Part shown: positions 36,551-48,672 of the stretch, piece after piece
How positions within the stretch are numbered: position 1 is the first letter of the stretch
How the letters are laid out: each line of letters begins with the position of its first letter
NCBI GenBank assembly: GCA_964632315.1
Contig: CAZWEM010000004.1
Location: 98,758 to 162,757 of the forward strand
Direction of reading: 5' to 3'
DNA: 64,000 nt
DNA from: an uncultured archaeon
GTDB taxonomy: Archaea > Asgardarchaeota > Lokiarchaeia > Sigyniarchaeales > SOKP01
Made by a program: the position numbers and the translations under genes
The notes under the pieces: model-generated
What the model saw: the letters and a program-made list of their open reading frames with translations, nothing else
What the model was told of the DNA's origin: nothing
Database searches by the model: none

Positions 36551-38059
36551 ATGTCCGTTCGGGGAACTATCACTCATGTGATCTTAATTTTAATGGATGA
36601 CGTTCGAGCAAGGCATCTATTTGATTTAATGAAAGATGGGAAACTCCCTCATATTAGTAAGTTAGCAAATAGTGGGATTTCATGTAAAAATTGCATCACA
36701 TCTTATCCAAGCATTACCTTCCCAAGTTATAGTAATGTCATACTAGGAGCGTATTCTGGATATTACCCAAAAGATGGCAGTGGAATTCCAATGTACCATT
36801 GGGTCGCAAGATCAGATCCTCCTGGTGAAGGAAGATTTCCTGATATTCATAATTATAGCTCAGGACGATACATACGTAAGATCAATAAAGATATTGGAAT
36901 TAATGTTAAAACTATATTCGAACAAGCGGGAGAGGGTAATTTTTTAAGTTCTCTCAATTTAATTAATCGGGGATCCACATTAATACCCCCAGAAGAGTAT
37001 ACAACCCTTTATATCCTCAAGACCGTTGAAAAAGTGTTTAAAGATCCAAAAAAGTTTCAATTTAATGACGTTCCAAGAGTTACAGTAGCATATGTTCCCA
37101 AAACTGATGATTTAATGCATCATAAAGGATTTGATCATCTAGAATATATTAAGGAAATAATGAAAGCCGATTCTGGAATCGGATCTCTTATAACTACACT
37201 TAAAGAAACTGGATATTTTGAATCTACTGCAATAGGAATTATTTCAGATCATGGAAATTACAAAGCGAAGAAAATGCATAATCTTGCCCCTTTTTTTGAA
37301 AGTAAAGGTTTAATACAATATAATCCCAAAAATGGAAAGGGTGACTTTGATGTAACCTTTGGCTCAGTCGGATTCTTTAATTTTCCAGGAAAAAATTGGC
37401 ATTTCCATCCATCTATAAGTGAAATGGAGAATTTAAAGGTAAGCGGTGGTATTAAAGGGAATTTGAATGCTTTTGAAATGTTATGGAGAATCCCAGGTAT
37501 AAAATACATGTACTACCGAGATGATAATAACACTCCTGATAAAGGAATAATTCACATAAGGTATCGGGATGAACAAGTTTCAATCCATGAAGGAAGAATA
37601 GAATATGAAGGTCATGGTAAAAATCAAAAAACTCGATATATTTTTGAGAATCTTGATGTATATGGATATGAAACCGATGAAAAAGCAGGAAATATATTAA
37701 ATGGAAAATTTCACTATATTGATGATTGGCTAGACTATACAAATCATGTAGATTTTCCTTTGATTATTGACCAGATTCCCCGCTATTTCAAAAATCCTCG
37801 CTCCTGTGATATCATGGTATCTACTTTAGGAGAATATGCATTTGGGTATGAGCATGGTAAAACAGTGGGCGATTATCCATATTCGCATGACATTTGCTTA
37901 CGTAAATCGATGGTTGTTCCATTTATAATTGGAGGATCTCCAAATATTCCGATAAAGACATTACCCTATTGTAAAACAACAGATATGGTTCCCACGTTAT
38001 TACATTTATTGGGCGAAACTCCTGATGGTTCTGTAGTAGGAAAATCTGTAATAAATTGA
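36551..38059 (+). CDS. Alkaline phosphatase superfamily, nucleotide pyrophosphatase/phosphodiesterase type
   Basis: LMDD, PSITFP (Thr nucleophile), DDLMH, SDHG, SHD. Confidence 0.88.
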   Translation: MSVRGTITHVILILMDDVRARHLFDLMKDGKLPHISKLANSGISCKNCITSYPSITFPSYSNVILGAYSGYYPKDGSGIPMYHWVARSDPPGEGRFPDIHNYSSGRYIRKINKDIGINVKTIFEQAGEGNFLSSLNLINRGSTLIPPEEYTTLYILKTVEKVFKDPKKFQFNDVPRVTVAYVPKTDDLMHHKGFDHLEYIKEIMKADSGIGSLITTLKETGYFESTAIGIISDHGNYKAKKMHNLAPFFESKGLIQYNPKNGKGDFDVTFGSVGFFNFPGKNWHFHPSISEMENLKVSGGIKGNLNAFEMLWRIPGIKYMYYRDDNNTPDKGIIHIRYRDEQVSIHEGRIEYEGHGKNQKTRYIFENLDVYGYETDEKAGNILNGKFHYIDDWLDYTNHVDFPLIIDQIPRYFKNPRSCDIMVSTLGEYAFGYEHGKTVGDYPYSHDICLRKSMVVPFIIGGSPNIPIKTLPYCKTTDMVPTLLHLLGETPDGSVVGKSVIN

Positions 38060-38094
38060 TAATTTTTTAATCCTATTTTTCTTTATTTTTTACC

Positions 38095-40911
38095 ATGGTA
38101 AATGCAAAAGAGATTGTAATAGTACCCGAAACTCACTGGGACCGTGAAACTTTATTGAATTGATGAATAAAGCGCGAGTGGTATCTCCCATTTCAAGAGT
38201 ATCGGGCGAGGCTTGTTCTACTGATGGACAAGTTAATTGATATATTAGAAAGAGACGAAAATTATTCAAGTTTTACCCTTGATGGTCAAGTAATTCCATT
38301 AGAGGACTATCTCGAAGTCAAACCAGAAATGGAAGAGAAGATCAGAACATTTGTAAAACAGAAAAGATTGTCTATTGGTCCGATGTACGTGCTACCCGAT
38401 GAATTTCTCGTAAGCGGTGAATCGCTCATTCGCAATTTATTGATAGGTTATCAATTATCGCAAAAATTTGGAGGCGTAATGAAAGTAGGATACATACCCG
38501 ATCCTTTCGGTCATATCGCCCAATTACCCCAAATCTTGAGTGAATTTGAATTACCAGCGATTCTATTTTGGAGAGGGTTCGGTAATGAATTCGAAGATAA
38601 CAAGCTTAATATGGAGTTTAATTGGGATGCTCCAGGAAATGCTGCTTCTATTTTGGCAATCCACCTAATTTTAAGTTACGGTTCAGTTGCTGACATCTCT
38701 ACTAAAAAGATTAAAGGGCAATATAAATCTGCATTAGGAAGGATAAAGCGTGTCGTATCAAAATTTGAACAATATACTGCAACTCCTTATATTGTACTAA
38801 ATAGTGGGTCTGATCATCACGAAGCCAGACCAGAAATTCCTGAAATTGTAACTCAATGGAATGAAAAATATCCAGATAAGTTAATGATTCAAAATGATTT
38901 TGAGTATTATATCAATAAAATTCTTGAGTTAAATCCGACTTTAAAATCATTTACTGGAGAATTACGGGGGGGACGGTATGCTCATTTGCTCTCAGGAGTA
39001 TTTTCCGCAAGAATGTGGATAAAGCAACGAAACAGTGCTATTGAATATTTGTTTGAAAAGTATGTAGAACCGATTTCAGCAATTTCATTGTTTCTCGATA
39101 AATATAATGAATTTAAATATCCCCAAGGATACATTCTCGCGGGTTTAAAATGGTTGATAAAAAATCATCCTCATGATAGTATATGTGGATGTTCAATTGA
39201 TCAAGTCCATAATGAGATGAGAACTCGGTTTGATTGGGCGGAACAAATAGGTGAAGAAATATTTAAAAATACAGCCTTGTATCTTTTTGATTTAATTAAA
39301 ATCGATTCATCAGGTAAAAAAATTCCATTTATAATATTTAACCCACTTCCGTGGAAAAGGGAGGATATCGTGAAATTTCATATTTCCTCACATATTAAGC
39401 ATGTAACGAAAGAAAGCCCGGGAGATTTCAGTATTATAGATTCAAACGGAAAAACTTTTCCATACCATGTTAAATATATTGAGGAAGAGCCTCGATATCA
39501 AACTGTTTTTTCTATTAGTCATTCATGTGGCTTTTTAGCTGAAATCCCTCCTTGTGGATATAAAATTTTTTATTTATTGCCGGATCAAAAACTCCCGATT
39601 TCTGAAAATAAGGTTTTAGAATTAAAAAGTGGGAAATATTTCATTGAAAACCAATACTATAAGGTGAATGTTGATCTTAACGGAAGGATTCATGTATTCG
39701 ATAAGGAAAGCAATAAATCATACGATGATATCTGTTTTTTTGAGGACGTAGGTGATTGGGGAGATGAATACGACTTTGCAGGACCACAAGAAAATCAGGT
39801 TGATCTCAGATTTACGTCAGAAGACTTAAATGTATTATCGATTGAGCAATTTATTGATGGGCTTTCCCAAAAAACAATCAGAATTGAAGCCAACTTGAAT
39901 TTACCTGCCGCTTTAACAGAAGATCGATATAATAGAGATGATTTTCTTGTTTCAAATTTAATCTCAATATTTATTTCACTTTATCAAGGAATCAAGCGCA
40001 TAGACTTCAAAGTGTTACTGAATAATAAGAGTAAAGATCATAGAATTCGGGTATTATTTCCTACGAAAATTAAAACTGATAAGGTAGATTGTGACGGGCA
40101 TTTTTATGTTGTATCCAGAAATGTAAATCTTCCATTAGCTGAAAAATGGGCTCAAAAACCCTTACCTACGAATCATCAAAAAGACTTTATCTCAGTTAGT
40201 GATAATGGAAATACATTCGGACTAATTAATAAAGGATTACCAGAATATGAAGCCGTAATAAATGAGGATGGAACGATTACATTAGCTATTACTTTATTGC
40301 GATGTATTGAGTGGTTATCAAGACACGATTTGAGTACGCGACCAAACAACGCCGGACCTGACTTAAGTACTCCCGGAGCTCAATGCTTAGGGAAACATAC
40401 ATTCGAATTTAGCATGGTTACCCATATAAATTCAAGTTGGATTGATGCTAAAATCCATCAAACTGGAAAAGAAGTTAATAACCCATTGAAAATCATCTTT
40501 CCCACGATTGCTCAGAGTCCTATGAGAACAACGGATAAGGTCATGCTTAAACCGTTTGGGATCTTGACTTATTTTGAAAATCCTCGAGAAGATATCAAGG
40601 AACCTTTCCTTCCTACTGAATTGAGCTTTTTAGAAATTGATAATCCAAACATTATCTTAAGTGCAATGAAAAAATCCGAAGCTCTTAGTGATTTAATCAT
40701 ACGAGTATATAATGTCTCTGATACACTTGAAGAAGGCATTATTAAATTGTATAAAGGACTCTCGATTTTAGAATGCAATATTGTAAATCTTTTAGAGGAT
40801 ATCCCCAAACGAAACATTTATGCTTCAATAAAGCTCATTAATGACAATACCCTAAAAATCTCATTAGATCCTAATGTGATAACAACAATGAAATTAAAAA
40901 TTAAAAAATAG
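38095..40911 (+). CDS. GH38 alpha-mannosidase (mannosylglycerate hydrolase MngB-like), split by a 30-nt BHB intron; exons 38095-38148 and 38179-40911, 928 aa spliced
   Basis: Spliced N-terminus MVNAKEIVIVPETHWDREWYLPFQEYR restores the GH38 HWDREWY motif; also LDGQ, PDPFGH and HDSICGCS. Confidence 0.9.
38149..38178 (+). other. Bulge-helix-bulge (tRNA-type) intron in a protein-coding gene
   Basis: Central helix CGTG/CGCG, bulges AAA and AGT, inner helix CTTTATT/AATAAAG, outer pairing TGGGA/TCCCA; contains in-frame TGA TGA. Confidence 0.85.
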
Positions 40912-43120: not shown

Positions 43121-44227
43121 ATGAAGAACTACGACATTATTATTATTGGAGCAGGTCCTGGGGGATCTGTAGCAGCAAAAATCGCTGCAGAAAATGGTTA
43201 CTCTACCTGTTTTTTTGAAAAAGAATCACTCAGAGAAGGTGGAAGATATAAAGCTTGTGGTGGTGCTATTGCTTGGGAACTTGTTGAAGAGATAGATTAT
43301 CCCGAAGAAAAAATAAGTCGGATAATAGAATCTTTAGAGCTTCATCATATTGATGGTGAAACTTTTTCCAAAAATGGAAAAGGTGCTGTAGTTTGGAGGA
43401 GTGAATTCGATAAATACATAACTGACTTGGCAATGGAAGCTGGGGCTCAATTAAATGACAATGAAAAATTAATTAAAATACAAAAATCAAATGGATCTTA
43501 CCTAATCGTGACTACTAAAGGTGAATATCAGGCAAAGTACGTGATTGCTGCAGATGGTGTGACTTCTACTACTCTAAACCTTTTAAAATGGCCATTTTTT
43601 GAAAGCAAGGATACTATTTTAACTATTACGCAAGAAATGAGAACCTCTCAGGAAGATATCAAACAATCCCTGGGAAGTGACAAAGTTCATCTCTTTTTTG
43701 GGATAGAAGATTTTATCACCGTTGGCTATGCTTGGCTATTTCCAAAAAAAGAAGCTATAACAGTAGGATGGGGCAATCAAATTGATTTAATAAAAAATTC
43801 TCGTGAGGAGTTTCAGAAATTTAGAAATTTATCATTTGTCAAAAATGCCCTAAAAAATTCGGAATTAGACGTGTTTAAACCTCATTTAATTCCAGTGGGA
43901 CTGAGATCAAAACTTTATGAAGATAATGTATTCGCCATAGGGGATGCTGGTGGAATTGTAGATCCAATTAGTGGAAAGGGCATACCATATGCGATGATGT
44001 CTGGTCAAATTGCAATTGAGACAATTAAATATTGTGAAGATAAAGAAAAGCAAGATAAGTTTGGTTCTCAATATTTAAAGTCATTAGATAGAAAATTTTT
44101 AAGAATTTTAAAAGCTAAGCGTATTGCTCGAGAAAAAATATTCAAGAATGATGAAAATTTGAAGAAATTTCTATCCCTTTGGGAAAATCATAGAAGTTCT
44201 GAGATTGTAATGAGAAAATTGATATAA
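43121..44227 (+). CDS. Geranylgeranyl reductase family FAD oxidoreductase
   Basis: GAGPGG, KACGG, AADG, GYAWLFP, GDAGG..P.SG.GI. Confidence 0.9.
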   Translation: MKNYDIIIIGAGPGGSVAAKIAAENGYSTCFFEKESLREGGRYKACGGAIAWELVEEIDYPEEKISRIIESLELHHIDGETFSKNGKGAVVWRSEFDKYITDLAMEAGAQLNDNEKLIKIQKSNGSYLIVTTKGEYQAKYVIAADGVTSTTLNLLKWPFFESKDTILTITQEMRTSQEDIKQSLGSDKVHLFFGIEDFITVGYAWLFPKKEAITVGWGNQIDLIKNSREEFQKFRNLSFVKNALKNSELDVFKPHLIPVGLRSKLYEDNVFAIGDAGGIVDPISGKGIPYAMMSGQIAIETIKYCEDKEKQDKFGSQYLKSLDRKFLRILKAKRIAREKIFKNDENLKKFLSLWENHRSSEIVMRKLI

Positions 44228-44247
44228 ATGGAAAGAGGATTAAGATC

Positions 44248-45315
44248 ATGAAATTTGGTGAATATGCAAAGACATTCATTCCACAAATAAATGAAGCAAT
44301 TAAATTACTTTTTCAAGAAAAATTAAAAACTGTTAAAAATGATTTTCTAGTTTCATACTATACAGAATTACGTGATTACATTTTATCTGGAGGAAAAAGA
44401 ATTCGACCTCTTCTCTCTATTGGTGCTTTCAACAGTTTGAATGAGGATCATAATGATAAGATAATAAATCCTAGTGTTGGAATAGAACTTCTTCATAATG
44501 CTTCTCTTATACATGATGATATTATCGATAAAGATAATTTTCGACGTGGAGAACCATCATTCCATTATAGGTTTCAGACATATCATCAAAAGCACAATTT
44601 GGAAAAAATGCAGAAGGTTGATTTTGGAAATTCAATTGGAATAATAGGAGGAGACTCCATGTATTTTTTAGGTCTGGAAGCATATCTATCCAATAATTTT
44701 GCTGATCCTTTAAATCTAAAAGCTATAAATTATTATCATCAAGCTTTCATCGAAATTGCAGATGGAGTCTTAATCGAAACCGAAATGGTGAATCGGAATA
44801 AAGTCTCTCTAAAGGAATACATTGAGATGATTTCTTTAAAAACTGGTGCTTTAATTGAGAAAGCTCTGTTAATAGGCGCTTCTTATGCTAATATTGATGA
44901 AAAATATAAAACGTATTTTTCAACGTATGGTATCAATCTTGGCATTATCTTCCAAATAGTTGATGATATTCTTGGAACTTTTGGAGATTCTAAGATTACT
45001 GGAAAACCTACAGATGGAGATATTCGTGAAGGTAAGTGGACCTGTTTATTGATTGAAGCGCTGAACAATCTAGAAATTGATGATAGAATTCTTCTAAACA
45101 GTTTGATTAAAAAAACGAACATTACAAACTCGGATGTTAGTAAAGTTAAAAAATTATTTCTGAAAGCAGATGTAATTAATTCGTGTAAAAAACAAGCTAA
45201 TAAATACTATGAAGAAGCTTCAGATGCCTTGAAAGAGTTATCTGTTGTGATAAAAAGCTCAGAATTAGAATTTTTCACCGATTTATTGGATTTTGTAACT
45301 AAAAGGGAATATTAA
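44248..45315 (+). CDS. idsA: Geranylgeranyl diphosphate / polyprenyl synthase
   Basis: GGKRIRP, FARM HDDIID..RRG, KT, SARM FQIVDDIL, DIREGK. Confidence 0.92.
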   Translation: MKFGEYAKTFIPQINEAIKLLFQEKLKTVKNDFLVSYYTELRDYILSGGKRIRPLLSIGAFNSLNEDHNDKIINPSVGIELLHNASLIHDDIIDKDNFRRGEPSFHYRFQTYHQKHNLEKMQKVDFGNSIGIIGGDSMYFLGLEAYLSNNFADPLNLKAINYYHQAFIEIADGVLIETEMVNRNKVSLKEYIEMISLKTGALIEKALLIGASYANIDEKYKTYFSTYGINLGIIFQIVDDILGTFGDSKITGKPTDGDIREGKWTCLLIEALNNLEIDDRILLNSLIKKTNITNSDVSKVKKLFLKADVINSCKKQANKYYEEASDALKELSVVIKSSELEFFTDLLDFVTKREY

Positions 45316-45336
45316 ATTCATGTAAAGCATCTCCAA

Positions 45337-46131
45337 TCATCTGTATATAATTGTGGATTTAACATTTTCGTTCATAATACCTTTAATTAAGTAATCTTTC
45401 TTCAAACCATTAAGAATTTGAACAGGTATCCCCAATTTACCAATTTCACTTATTAGTTTAAGCTTACTCTTTATTCCACCAGTAACATCGATTTTTTTAT
45501 CTAAATTTGCCAAATTAAGCTCATCAATTTGATCGATTCTTATTTCATTAAGAAATTTGATAGCTCCATCTTTTTCAATAAAAACTCCATCCTTTTCTAT
45601 GGCAAAAATTACTTTTGATACGCGAAATTTTTGAAGTTGTTTACATAATTCAAAAATTATGAGGTCTCCAGAAATTATTGAAAATTTATTATTACTATCA
45701 AGGATTATATCACCATATAGTATTGGAGTAACTCCTATTTCGAGGATTGATTCAATTACTTTTAAATTGTTTACTTTTATCTCCTTTAACTCTCTCATGA
45801 AACTACTAAATGGTTCTACTGCGACGACAGGATAATCTTTTTCTAAAAAGCTTCCTATTATTTTTGAATTTAATTTTACCATGACTTCATGTGTTTTAGC
45901 CAATCCATAGATTTGATTCTTTATTTTCTTGTTAAATCCATTAGAGATTCCATATTTTTTTGCTACTGGATGGCCAAAAGAACCACCTCCATGTACAATG
46001 ATCAATTTTTTTTTACTACCAACTATTTCTTCAACAGATTGTTCTAAAATTTCATTTCTAATAGAAAATGGTTTATTTTTATCTGTTAAAAGGCTTCCTC
46101 CCAGTTTAAGAATTATTATTTCAGTTTTCAA
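45337..46131 (-). CDS. ipk: Isopentenyl phosphate kinase
   Basis: KLGGSLLTDK, HGGGSFGH (IPK His), SGD, DVTGG. Confidence 0.93.
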   Translation of the reverse strand: MKTEIIILKLGGSLLTDKNKPFSIRNEILEQSVEEIVGSKKKLIIVHGGGSFGHPVAKKYGISNGFNKKIKNQIYGLAKTHEVMVKLNSKIIGSFLEKDYPVVAVEPFSSFMRELKEIKVNNLKVIESILEIGVTPILYGDIILDSNNKFSIISGDLIIFELCKQLQKFRVSKVIFAIEKDGVFIEKDGAIKFLNEIRIDQIDELNLANLDKKIDVTGGIKSKLKLISEIGKLGIPVQILNGLKKDYLIKGIMNENVKSTIIYR

Positions 46132-46172
46132 TTATAACACATCCAGAATCTTAATTTGATTCTATTGTATGT

Positions 46173-47366
46173 TTATTCTTTAAATCCTTCCATATCTGTT
46201 TTTATAAGCTTGACTTTAGGCGAATTTGAATTCAGAAGTTTAGATGGGCCACCAAGTTTTCCTTCGATAATCTCATGTTGAGGAATAACAGGTTTTATTG
46301 CTTTCTTAATACTCTCTGCCTGTGATTTATTCGTTATTAATACAAGTGAAGGCCCAGTATCTATTGAAAAATATACTTCAAAACCACTTTTTCTTAATTC
46401 ACGTACCTCAAGAATCACTTTTAAAGTGTCAGGATCCCAAGCTATTATATTTTCATTATTAGGGGCGGTCATCGTTATAGCGTGTAAGCACAATGTATCA
46501 TACTCAGCTAAATCTCCAATTTTCGATAAATCGTGACTATCAAGAGCATCTATAAATTTAAATATTAATTCTTTTCTTTTACTTAACCATGCTTCAAAAA
46601 ATGGGGATTTGAGAGATACGTTATGTGCTTGTGCAGTCTTAAGTTCAGATTTTATAGGAATTGTTAAAAATGAAATATTATCTATAAAATCTTGATGTTC
46701 TTCTCTATTCAATTGAATTGCAAAAGAATCTAATGGATCAATGGTGGGATGACTTAACCATAAAGAAAACCCTCCAGAAGAACTACGGCATCCAGAACCC
46801 GAGAGATATCTAGAAAAAATGCTGAGTAAACGTCTATTATTAATAAATTCAGGTATATTGTCATAAAGAATTGATGTTGCTGCTAATCCTAGTGCTGCCG
46901 AACCAGAAGCAGATGTACCTAATCCTTTTCCTTCCTCTTTTGAAGGAAAGAAGTTACGTGAAATTAAAAGAGCTTTAGTATTTATCCCTGAGAAATTTCT
47001 TATATTTTCTAATGAACCTTTAACTTTTTGAAAAGTTATTCTATCTGCGGACGTTCCATTCAAGAAAACGATATCGTTCTTTAATTCTTTATCAAATCTT
47101 AAATATGAAATCGTATATAAACTCTCATTATTTAACGAGATACTCGGAAAAAATGAGATTTGTTGTTTAAGATCGGAAAATCCATGATACTTTAAAATTC
47201 CTTGGATCGGATTAGCAAGAGAAAAAGCTTCCCCCTCTTCATTTATTGCTTCTCGATTTCGAGGTAATTCATCAAAAACATATTCCTTCTTAATTAATAG
47301 TTGGCAAATCTCTTCGTAATCTCTTTTTAGTTGAATATTAAGAGTTTTAGATATGGACGATATCAT
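46173..47366 (-). CDS. mvaD: GHMP-family (phospho)mevalonate decarboxylase, haloarchaeal PMD-like
   Basis: ANPIQGILKYHG, GLGTSASGSAA, SGSGCRS, YFSIDTGP. Confidence 0.85.
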   Translation of the reverse strand: MISSISKTLNIQLKRDYEEICQLLIKKEYVFDELPRNREAINEEGEAFSLANPIQGILKYHGFSDLKQQISFFPSISLNNESLYTISYLRFDKELKNDIVFLNGTSADRITFQKVKGSLENIRNFSGINTKALLISRNFFPSKEEGKGLGTSASGSAALGLAATSILYDNIPEFINNRRLLSIFSRYLSGSGCRSSSGGFSLWLSHPTIDPLDSFAIQLNREEHQDFIDNISFLTIPIKSELKTAQAHNVSLKSPFFEAWLSKRKELIFKFIDALDSHDLSKIGDLAEYDTLCLHAITMTAPNNENIIAWDPDTLKVILEVRELRKSGFEVYFSIDTGPSLVLITNKSQAESIKKAIKPVIPQHEIIEGKLGGPSKLLNSNSPKVKLIKTDMEGFKE

Positions 47367-47505
47367 CCTACCTTTATAATAGTTCCCAAATTAAATAAAA
47401 ATTTTGAATATTGTTAAATGATGTATGCTCAAATGATTTGATAAGCCTCTTCAAATTACGAAATAATTGACATAATTTTTTAAAAATTGAAGATTTTTTG
47501 ACAAT

Positions 47506-48672
47506 ATGAAACAATACTCTTCAGAAATATCTGGTTTTTATAAGTTTTCGATCGGGGAAAGGTTAAAACTTATTGATGAAAAAGTTGGCTTGACAAAAGA
47601 CGAGATAAACGTTCTAAAGAATTTTGGTTATTACCAACCTAAAAAAATGGATATGATAATCGAGAATGTCATTGCAAGTTACCAATTACCTTACTCAATA
47701 GCTTGTAATTTTAAAATAAATGGAAAAGATTACCTTATTCCAATGGTCATAGAGGAACCTTCAGTCGTAGCTGCTGCATCTAATCTAGCTAGAATGGCGA
47801 GGAAACATGGGGGATTCCACTGTGAAAAGATATCACAGATAATGATTGGACAAGTTCAAATTTTGAATATCAAAAATATTGATTTAGCAATAAAAAATAT
47901 TAAAGCAAACAAAGAAAAAATCATTAAATTGGCTAACGATCAAGATCCAATTCTGGTTAAATTTGGTGGAGGAGTTGTGGATATAGAAATACGTCCCATT
48001 GAAACCATACAAGGACCCATGATTATCGTGCATCTACTCGTAAATGTATTAGATGCAATGGGTGCCAATGCTGTAAATACTATGGCTGAGGCAGTAGCTC
48101 CATATTTAGCACAATTATGTCAAGGAGAGTTTCTACTTAGAATCATATCAAATTTAGCGACGCATCGGATTGCAAAATGTAGAGCAATTTTTGATAAAGA
48201 TATGCTAGGTGGTTCAGAGGTTGTTGAGGGGATTTTAAACGCATACGCATTCGCTAAAGCAGATCCATTTCGAGCCGCAACTCATAATAAAGGGATTATG
48301 AATGGAATAATTGCCTTAACACTAGCGACGGGTAATGATACAAGAGCAATTGAAGCAGGCGCTCACGCTTACGCTGCTTTGAATGGTAATTACCAACCGT
48401 TAAGTAAATTTAGTATTAACTCAGATGGACACCTTGTTGGAGAATTAGAATTACCAATTGCTTTAGGAATTATCGGGGGGCTTACTAAAACCCATCCATT
48501 GGCCAAAATATCTTTAAAAATTTTAGGCATTAATAAAGCAGAAGAATTAGCTCAAGTCGCAGTGGCAGTGGGATTATGTCAAAATGTTGCTGCTTTACGA
48601 GCTTTAGCAGCAGAAGGAATACAAGCAGGGCATATGAAATTACACAAAAGGAAAGCACAAAAGAATGAATAG
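47506..48672 (+). CDS. mvaA: HMG-CoA reductase, class II
   Basis: ENVI, EEPSVVAA, DAMGAN, RAATHNKGIMNG, EGIQAGHMKLH. Confidence 0.93.
   Translation: MKQYSSEISGFYKFSIGERLKLIDEKVGLTKDEINVLKNFGYYQPKKMDMIIENVIASYQLPYSIACNFKINGKDYLIPMVIEEPSVVAAASNLARMARKHGGFHCEKISQIMIGQVQILNIKNIDLAIKNIKANKEKIIKLANDQDPILVKFGGGVVDIEIRPIETIQGPMIIVHLLVNVLDAMGANAVNTMAEAVAPYLAQLCQGEFLLRIISNLATHRIAKCRAIFDKDMLGGSEVVEGILNAYAFAKADPFRAATHNKGIMNGIIALTLATGNDTRAIEAGAHAYAALNGNYQPLSKFSINSDGHLVGELELPIALGIIGGLTKTHPLAKISLKILGINKAEELAQVAVAVGLCQNVAALRALAAEGIQAGHMKLHKRKAQKNE

What the first reader, a model, noticed from the sequence alone, without database searches (positions are those of the whole stretch)
38095..38190. tRNA-type bulge-helix-bulge intron inside the active-site motif of a protein-coding (GH38) gene
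Seen: from ATG 38095 the frame reads PETHWD-RE-[TLLN**IKRE]-WYLPFQ, so a 30-nt insert with two TGA stops splits the conserved GH38 HWDREWY motif. The RNA folds as a BHB: 4-bp central helix CGUG (38143-46) / CGCG (38173-76), 3-nt bulges AAA (38147-49) and AGU (38177-79), a 7-bp intron helix CUUUAUU/AAUAAAG, and an exon-exon side of one C-G pair plus UGGGA/UCCCA across a 5-nt bulge. Established: the archaeal splicing endonuclease EndA cuts after the second nucleotide of each bulge and RtcB ligates; the well-known archaeal mRNA intron is crenarchaeal cbf5. Applying that rule removes exactly 38149-38178 and gives GAC CGT GAA TGG TAT = D-R-E-W-Y, a 928-aa enzyme. Inference: this Asgard archaeon splices a metabolic mRNA, and expression depends on splicing because the unspliced RNA encodes only 22 aa. 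That could act as a switch conceptually like HAC1/XBP1 non-spliceosomal splicing. Similar introns may be hidden elsewhere as truncated gene calls.
Basis: partly seen in the sequence, partly recalled or inferred. Interest (0 to 1): 0.95.

Follow-up and report, generated by a model that had tools for sequence, protein, structure and literature searches.

The report
Mobile mini-intron in Asgard mannosidase gene
A 30-base insert with stop codons splits the zinc-binding motif of a sugar-cleaving enzyme gene in a Loki-type Asgard archaeon; it has the shape cut by the tRNA-splicing enzymes, behaves in about 100 related genomes like an intron that must be removed from the mRNA, and appears to be spread by a neighbouring DNA-cutting gene, although no spliced RNA has yet been seen.

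Summary
Observation confirmed to the base. Removing 38149-38178 restores HWDREWY and a 928-aa GH38 enzyme. The same site carries an insert in 16 of 95 family genomes (four genera). Across all searches I found 28 different inserts, 27 of 30 nt and one of 29 nt, all with an in-frame stop. The bulge-helix-bulge core forms at the one cut position that restores the protein (27 of 28) and at no shifted position. The intron stem covaries, the flanking codons are frozen, and interrupted genes stay under purifying selection (dN/dS 0.11-0.19). The host has a two-subunit EndA and RtcB. Presence is random on the gene tree. In 12 of 27 intron alleles (0 of 18 intron-less) an antisense LAGLIDADG gene sits upstream, often behind an orphaned first exon, and intron sequence tracks that nuclease, not the host gene. 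This window lacks the nuclease. So it is most likely a selfish, mobile mRNA intron, not a HAC1-like switch. LeuRS, EF-2 and VhuD in this genome hold similar inserts. No RNA evidence. This scan noted the same intron and cassette before in other genomes; I took the cassette lead from there and tested it. In print I found only cbf5 as a coding-sequence case.

The parts
38095..38148 (+). Exon 1 of the GH38 gene (18 codons), carrying the zinc ligands His14 and Asp16 and the 5' strand of the central helix
   Evidence: HWD aligns with SpGH38 His13/Asp15
38149..38178 (+). 30-nt BHB intron with two in-frame TGA
38179..40911 (+). Exon 2 of the GH38 gene (910 codons plus stop)
38143..38146 (+). Central helix, 5' strand (CGUG), exonic
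38147..38149 (+). 5' bulge AAA; predicted cut between 38148 and 38149
38150..38172 (+). Intron hairpin: stem 38150-56 / 38166-72 and loop
38173..38176 (+). Central helix, 3' strand (CGCG here; CACG or CAUG in most relatives)
38177..38179 (+). 3' bulge AGU; predicted cut between 38178 and 38179
38137..38142 (+). Exon-side pairing, 5' strand: C38142 with G38180, and GGGA with 38186-38189 (weak)
38060..38094 (.). 35-nt spacer; in 12 relatives this position holds the antisense LAGLIDADG gene and often an orphan exon 1; absent here
36551..38059 (+). Upstream phosphodiesterase-family gene (PF01663), the usual neighbour and likely left homology arm for the cassette

Best explanation
The insert is a tRNA-type intron in a messenger RNA. 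The transcript folds the BHB; the host's two-subunit EndA cuts after the second base of each bulge (38148|38149 and 38178|38179); RtcB joins the exons, giving a 928-aa GH38 alpha-mannosidase-family enzyme. Unspliced RNA makes only a 22-aa peptide. SHOWN: the geometry, the conservation pattern, the intact gene, the enzymes in the genome. INFERRED: cutting and joining in the cell. The intron is there because it is selfish cargo. In relatives a cassette of about 1.4 kb (antisense LAGLIDADG gene, new leader, replacement exon 1, intron) sits exactly at the exon junction and leaves the old exon 1 orphaned upstream. INFERRED (about 0.75): the nuclease cuts intron-less alleles, repair copies the cassette in, and the intron plus recoded codons protect the new allele. 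The nuclease gene later decays or is deleted, leaving the intron alone, which is the state in this window.
For: 16 of 95 family genomes in four genera carry a stop-bearing insert at this site. 28 distinct inserts, 27 of 30 nt and one of 29 nt, all with an in-frame stop. In 27 of 28 only one cut register restores the protein; the 4-bp central helix forms there in 27 of 28 and at no shift of 1-4 nt. 93% of structure cells pair; 7 of 9 intron-stem pairs show two-sided changes; 0 of 500 shuffles and no slid control reach this. Codons GAC CGT GAA are fixed in 28 of 28 intron alleles (16 of 16 from the pattern-free search) against 2 of 46 intron-less, while neighbouring codons vary. dN/dS 0.11-0.19 with or without the intron. 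EndA alpha with Tyr/His/Lys and the crenarchaeal-type loop, an EndA beta-like paralogue, and RtcB are present. Mobility: 21 state changes on a 74-gene tree against 22.6 when shuffled; nuclease in 12 of 27 intron alleles and 0 of 18 intron-less (Fisher p = 0.001, overstated by kinship); PF14528; orphan exon 1 with native codons in L042, L055, L059, L065; intron differences follow nuclease identity (rho -0.67), not GH38 identity (rho 0.11).
Against: No spliced RNA, intron circle, cleavage assay or peptide. The BHB is not the dominant predicted fold: central-helix probability averages 0.22 across relatives (0.64 here), the exon C-G pair about 0.01, and the consensus fold prefers a competing pairing. 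Many of the 28 inserts came from a pattern search that fixed CGTGAA. Covariation counts are inflated by shared descent. This genome has no match to the cassette nuclease, so the route by which this allele got its intron is inferred from relatives. Nuclease activity and target are untested.
Confidence: 0.9

Rival explanations
1. Translational bypassing: the ribosome hops from GAA (38146-48) to GAG (38176-78), as in phage T4 gene 60, and no RNA is cut.
For: In this window take-off and landing codons both encode Glu, and a stop and a hairpin lie between.
Against: The last codon of the insert is GAT in 24 of 28, and a Glu codon in only 2. The first stop lies 3-6 codons into the insert, not next to the take-off site. 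Hopping does not explain the conserved central helix. The features of gene 60 are from my own knowledge.
Confidence: 0.03
2. Stop-codon read-through or selenocysteine recoding gives a protein with a 10-residue insertion.
For: The genome has a tRNA-Sec call and TGA-containing selenoprotein-type genes; both stops here are TGA; the length is a multiple of three.
Against: Relatives use TAA (12), TAG (4) and TGA (17) at varying positions; one insert is 29 nt and shifts the frame. The encoded peptide is not conserved and would split HWDREWY, which is unbroken in solved GH38 structures.
Confidence: 0.01
3. The gene is dead, or works from the downstream ATG at 38224 (895 aa), and the insert is a scar.
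For: An 895-aa ORF with an ATG exists; the genome has an intact paralogue.
Against: That product lacks two of the four zinc ligands. dN/dS is 0.11-0.19 and exon 1 is conserved in all intron alleles; downstream frames are intact at 907-920 codons.
Confidence: 0.02
4. The insert is removed at DNA level in part of the population, or EndA only cuts and the RNA is degraded.
For: Intron-less alleles with the same GAC CGT GAA context exist (L004, L005).
Against: Near-identical contigs in three runs show only the insert form; the one 30-nt-shorter contig in X1 has divergent flanks, so it is another lineage. Cutting without joining cannot explain purifying selection.
Confidence: 0.03
5. The intron is spliced but kept as a regulatory switch, like HAC1/XBP1 (not exclusive of the best explanation).
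For: All 28 inserts stop translation, against 62% of shuffles and 20 or 17 of 28 in the other frames; the BHB competes with another fold. A negative-regulator role was proposed for the cbf5 intron (PMC2738675).
Against: About 79 of 95 relatives lack it, very close sisters differ, and presence is random on the tree. 19 of 28 stops share one position, so they are not independent. A homing cassette already explains a site in a conserved motif.
Confidence: 0.12

Closest known systems
cbf5 pre-mRNA intron of Desulfurococcales and Sulfolobales (Yokobori 2009, PMC2738675)
   Same: Short (16-44 bp there), relaxed BHB, cut between the second and third bulge base by a two-subunit EndA, placed in an active-site region, variable interior.
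   Different: Different phylum and gene; near-fixed 30-nt length; patchy and laterally moving rather than one gain with losses; linked to a free-standing nuclease; one of several such sites in the genome. cbf5 splicing is shown by experiment, this is not.
HVO_1309 mRNA of Haloferax volcanii (PMC7714728; PMC10485636)
   Same: An mRNA cut by EndA at a BHB.
   Different: That site is in the 5' UTR and does not break a reading frame.
Asgard tRNA introns (bioRxiv 10.64898/2026.10.13.758758)
   Same: Same lineage and motif, repeated gains, two-subunit EndA; splicing also not yet shown.
   Different: That study covers tRNA genes only ('mRNA' occurs 0 times) and found no general route of arrival; here a candidate route is visible.
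Collaborative homing in phages (described in PMC10448857)
   Same: A free-standing nuclease next to an ORF-less intron, acquired together at the intron site.
   Different: Cellular archaeal genome; protein-spliced 30-nt intron rather than a group I ribozyme; the cassette inserts at the junction and supplies a replacement first exon.
Archaeal rRNA BHB introns encoding homing endonucleases (reviewed in PMC2738675)
   Same: BHB intron made mobile by a homing nuclease; deletion derivatives exist.
   Different: There the nuclease lies inside the intron; here it lies outside, upstream and antisense.

Membership tests
EndA/RtcB-spliced BHB intron (cbf5 type) | 4-bp central helix with a 3-nt bulge on each strand | tested here: met
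   27 of 28 inserts; 99% of cells paired
EndA/RtcB-spliced BHB intron (cbf5 type) | Cut after the second base of each bulge restores the functional sequence | tested here: met
   The BHB register is the only register that restores HWDREWY in 27 of 28
EndA/RtcB-spliced BHB intron (cbf5 type) | Intron-side helix kept by compensatory change | tested here: met
   7 of 9 pairs with two-sided changes
EndA/RtcB-spliced BHB intron (cbf5 type) | Exon-side helix (strict form); relaxed forms are accepted by two-subunit enzymes | tested here: inconclusive
   One invariant C-G, then an internal loop and GGGA/UCCC; low predicted probability. Relaxed form, as for cbf5
EndA/RtcB-spliced BHB intron (cbf5 type) | Host encodes a two-subunit EndA with the specificity loop, and RtcB | tested here: met
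EndA/RtcB-spliced BHB intron (cbf5 type) | Spliced transcript or EndA cleavage demonstrated | not testable with these tools
   needs RNA or an in vitro assay
Collaborative homing unit | Free-standing homing endonuclease gene next to the intron and inherited with it | tested here: met
   In relatives: 12 of 27 against 0 of 18; intron tracks nuclease
Collaborative homing unit | Nuclease gene present at this locus in this genome | tested here: not met
   35-nt spacer, no tblastn match; none in the genome at 1e-8
Collaborative homing unit | Nuclease cuts the intron-less site and spares the intron allele | not testable with these tools
   needs a cleavage assay
Group I or II self-splicing intron | Ribozyme core of several hundred bases | tested here: not met
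   30 nt; no Rfam match above chance
Programmed translational bypass | Matching take-off and landing codons | tested here: not met
   Glu landing codon in 2 of 28
GH38 alpha-mannosidase family | Four GH38 Pfam domains and the HWD zinc motif | tested here: met
Mannosylglycerate hydrolase MngB (NF007331) | Score above the curated cut-off | tested here: not met
   493 bits against 1138; substrate unknown

The most novel reading that the evidence does not exclude
One family of Loki-type Asgard archaea routinely splices protein-coding mRNAs, including essential ones, with its tRNA-splicing machinery, and these 30-nt introns spread between species on free-standing homing endonuclease cassettes that bring a replacement first exon. 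That would be a prokaryotic system of many mobile, protein-spliced mRNA introns in the group closest to eukaryotes.
Probability: 0.7. Interest if true: 0.93.

Novelty: new variant of a known kind. Interest (0 to 1): 0.86.

Why it matters
Papers I could search report EndA splicing of only two archaeal mRNAs, one of them inside a coding sequence. A second phylum with several such introns per genome would change how Asgard genomes are annotated: genes such as LeuRS and EF-2 are called truncated. It would also give a testable answer to the open question of how short BHB introns, too small to encode a nuclease, are gained. It shows intron invasion of mRNAs tolerated through a trans-acting protein machinery in relatives of eukaryotes. 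This is an analogy to spliceosomal and XBP1 introns, not evidence of shared ancestry.

Tried and rejected
No RNA holder was listed for this stretch, so expression could not be examined. An ab initio genome scan (BHB plus joined frames plus codon score) gave no excess over 2-, 4- or 5-nt bulge controls and missed known cases (one search timed out); it gives no count of introns and I used it only for leads. A paralogue-based scan found three stop-bearing 30-nt BHB inserts among 44 candidates. Rejected candidates: G000 C2:101966 (a TGA in an HdrA-like CSI*ILGP motif, read as selenocysteine), C14:54946, C5:23309 and window position about 43211 (inside an intact ORF). No second copy of this intron's sequence was convincing elsewhere in the genome. 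Rfam gave only chance hits. The sigma-70 scan does not apply to archaea and matched shuffles. The one-clade tree test did not finish. The nuclease had no PDB sequence match. Whether this window's exon 1 is of the cassette-borne type is unsettled: it shares a KE motif with two cassette exons, but DNA distance does not single them out. The three complete genomes of the order searched have no close orthologue (best E 1e-13 or weaker). No structure or complex prediction was needed.

Full report
Observation. The sequence is as described. From ATG 38095 the frame reads PETHWDRE, a 10-codon insert with two TGA, then WYLPFQ and 910 open codons. Removing 38149-38178 gives 928 aa; leaving it gives 22 aa. 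The downstream part has all four GH38 Pfam domains, and an intron-less orthologue matches solved bacterial GH38 enzymes with HWDREWY unbroken. In the Streptococcus enzyme His13 and Asp15 of this motif bind zinc (PMC2815779), so exon 1 holds two of four metal ligands and a start at 38224 would lose them. The substrate is unknown: the MngB model scores 493 against a cut-off of 1138. A contig of run X1 bridges the insert without a difference, two more runs cover it, and X5 holds a four-change variant that keeps the pairing. The fold alone is not unusual (z = -0.51), so the case rests on relatives.

Relatives. A pattern-free search of 154 genomes of the order found the orthologue in 95 genomes of the family; 16 of them, in four genera, have a match 30 bases longer with stops inside. 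Record titles name mostly Promethearchaeota. With genome and metagenome pattern scans there are 28 distinct inserts, all at the same junction, 27 of 30 nt and one of 29 nt, all with an in-frame stop. The sharpest test is: in 27 of 28 only one cut register restores the protein, and the 4-bp central helix forms at that register in 27 of 28 and never at shifts of 1-4 bases. On 29 distinct aligned rows, 93% of structure cells pair, 7 of 9 intron-stem pairs have two-sided changes, and neither shuffled nor slid controls come near (kinship inflates this). The exon codons that build the motif are frozen, GAC CGT GAA in 28 of 28 intron alleles (16 of 16 from the unbiased search) against 2 of 46 intron-less, while adjacent Pro, Thr and His codons vary. 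Interrupted genes are alive: dN/dS is 0.11-0.19 in all pair types.

Machinery. The genome encodes two EndA paralogues and RtcB. One has the Tyr, His and Lys of the active site and aligns best with Aeropyrum EndA, including the N-terminal loop region; the other lacks the His. Kaneta and colleagues report that Asgard EndA is of the two-subunit type with this loop, which allows relaxed motifs to be cut (PMC5829648). That matters, because the exon side here is weak: the drawn BHB is 2.3 kcal/mol above the local minimum, the central helix has a mean predicted probability of 0.22, and the exon C-G pair about 0.01. Most cbf5 introns are also relaxed.

Why it is there. On a tree of 74 orthologues the intron changes state 21 times, as often as shuffled labels (22.6); strongly supported branches force at least 16 changes. 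Close sisters that differ in state are unusually divergent in exon 1 (0.19 against 0.07 in the gene body; intron-less pairs 0.06). Among loci with at least 1 kb upstream, an antisense ORF of about 390-400 aa lies before exon 1 in 12 of 27 intron alleles and 0 of 18 intron-less. It has two LAGLIDADG-like motifs and passes the PF14528 cut-off. Its six best genome matches all abut intron-bearing GH38 genes. Upstream of it an orphan exon 1 with the native codons ends at the junction in L042, L059 and L065, three codons past it in L055, and is decayed in L038 and L040. The cassette moves as a unit: L038 and L059 share 60% GH38 identity but 90% nuclease DNA and differ at 2 intron bases, whereas L059 and L065 share 92% GH38 identity but 70% nuclease DNA; intron differences follow nuclease identity (rho -0.67), not GH38 identity (0.11) (pairs are not independent). 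L056 looks like L040 after loss of the nuclease between the two exon-1 copies. In this window only 35 bases separate the upstream gene from the ATG and no nuclease match is found, so it is most simply a late stage with the intron left behind. The cutting step and the direction of transfer are inferred.

More sites. My own scans gave leads that I checked in relatives. LeuRS (G000 C41:26283, minus) and EF-2 (C25:29388, minus) carry 30-nt stop-bearing inserts with full central helices, shared with three and two relatives in varied form and absent from the others parsed. In VhuD/MvhD (C9:43621, minus) removal restores WK-TGA-GYG as in relatives, where TGA is probably selenocysteine. I have no reliable genome-wide count.

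Rivals. Ribosome hopping fits this window (GAA to GAG) but only 2 of 28 inserts end in a Glu codon. Read-through fails on TAA, TAG and the 29-nt variant. A dead gene fails on dN/dS. A regulatory switch is possible but unsupported: the universal stop (28 of 28 against 62% in shuffles) may be a fail-safe, yet 19 share one position.

Comparison and verdict. It works like the cbf5 intron and meets every family feature I could test except a strict exon helix; splicing itself could not be tested. Reviews name two EndA-spliced archaeal mRNAs, cbf5 and a Haloferax 5' UTR; a 2026 preprint on Asgard introns treats tRNAs only and leaves their arrival open. My searches cover open-access papers only. The nuclease link resembles collaborative homing in phages. 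This scan has noted the same GH38 intron, the cassette and other such introns before; those notes were leads, not evidence. Verdict: real, a new variant of a known kind; splicing 0.9, spread by the cassette about 0.75, interest 0.86.

Noticed in passing
G000 C41:26283-26254 (minus), L115/L151: LeuRS gene split by a 30-nt BHB insert with a stop in the MGYD-SFGLPAE motif; three relatives carry variants, the others parsed lack it.
   Followed up: yes
G000 C25:29388-29359 (minus), L114/L179: EF-2 gene split by a 30-nt BHB insert with a stop before DEEQERGIT; two relatives carry variants.
   Followed up: yes
G000 C9:43621-43592 (minus), L116/L206: VhuD/MvhD-type gene with a 30-nt BHB insert one base before a probable selenocysteine TGA, so it would need both splicing and recoding. 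G041 (another family, L219) seems to have a different insert of about 31 nt at the same place.
   Followed up: partly
G000 C32:49145-49116 (minus), L117: 30-nt stop-bearing insert with BHB shape in a gene with an AIRS_C domain downstream; not checked in relatives.
   Followed up: partly
L165 (G009 C316): The LeuRS gene of G009 shows a further 30-base lengthening with two TAG inside the matched stretch, perhaps a second intron.
   Followed up: no
family genomes: Relatives of the cassette nuclease occur in 76 of 134 family genomes, often several per genome and often in longer ORFs; their sites could mark other introns.
   Followed up: no
L004, L005, L003: Intron-less alleles that keep the intron-type codons GAC CGT GAA/GAG, next to an intron-bearing sister (L002): possible precise intron loss.
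   Followed up: partly
G000 tRNA calls: ARAGORN finds only 30 tRNA genes, most with odd intron calls, in a 99% complete genome, in line with heavily interrupted tRNA genes.
   Followed up: no
G000 small contigs such as C74, C80, C90, C103-C113: GC-rich contigs in a 33% GC genome, probably contamination (8.6% reported).
   Followed up: no
window 43121-48672: Cluster that looks like isoprenoid and mevalonate pathway genes (reductase, prenyl synthase, kinase, decarboxylase, HMG-CoA reductase), judged from sequence motifs only.
   Followed up: no
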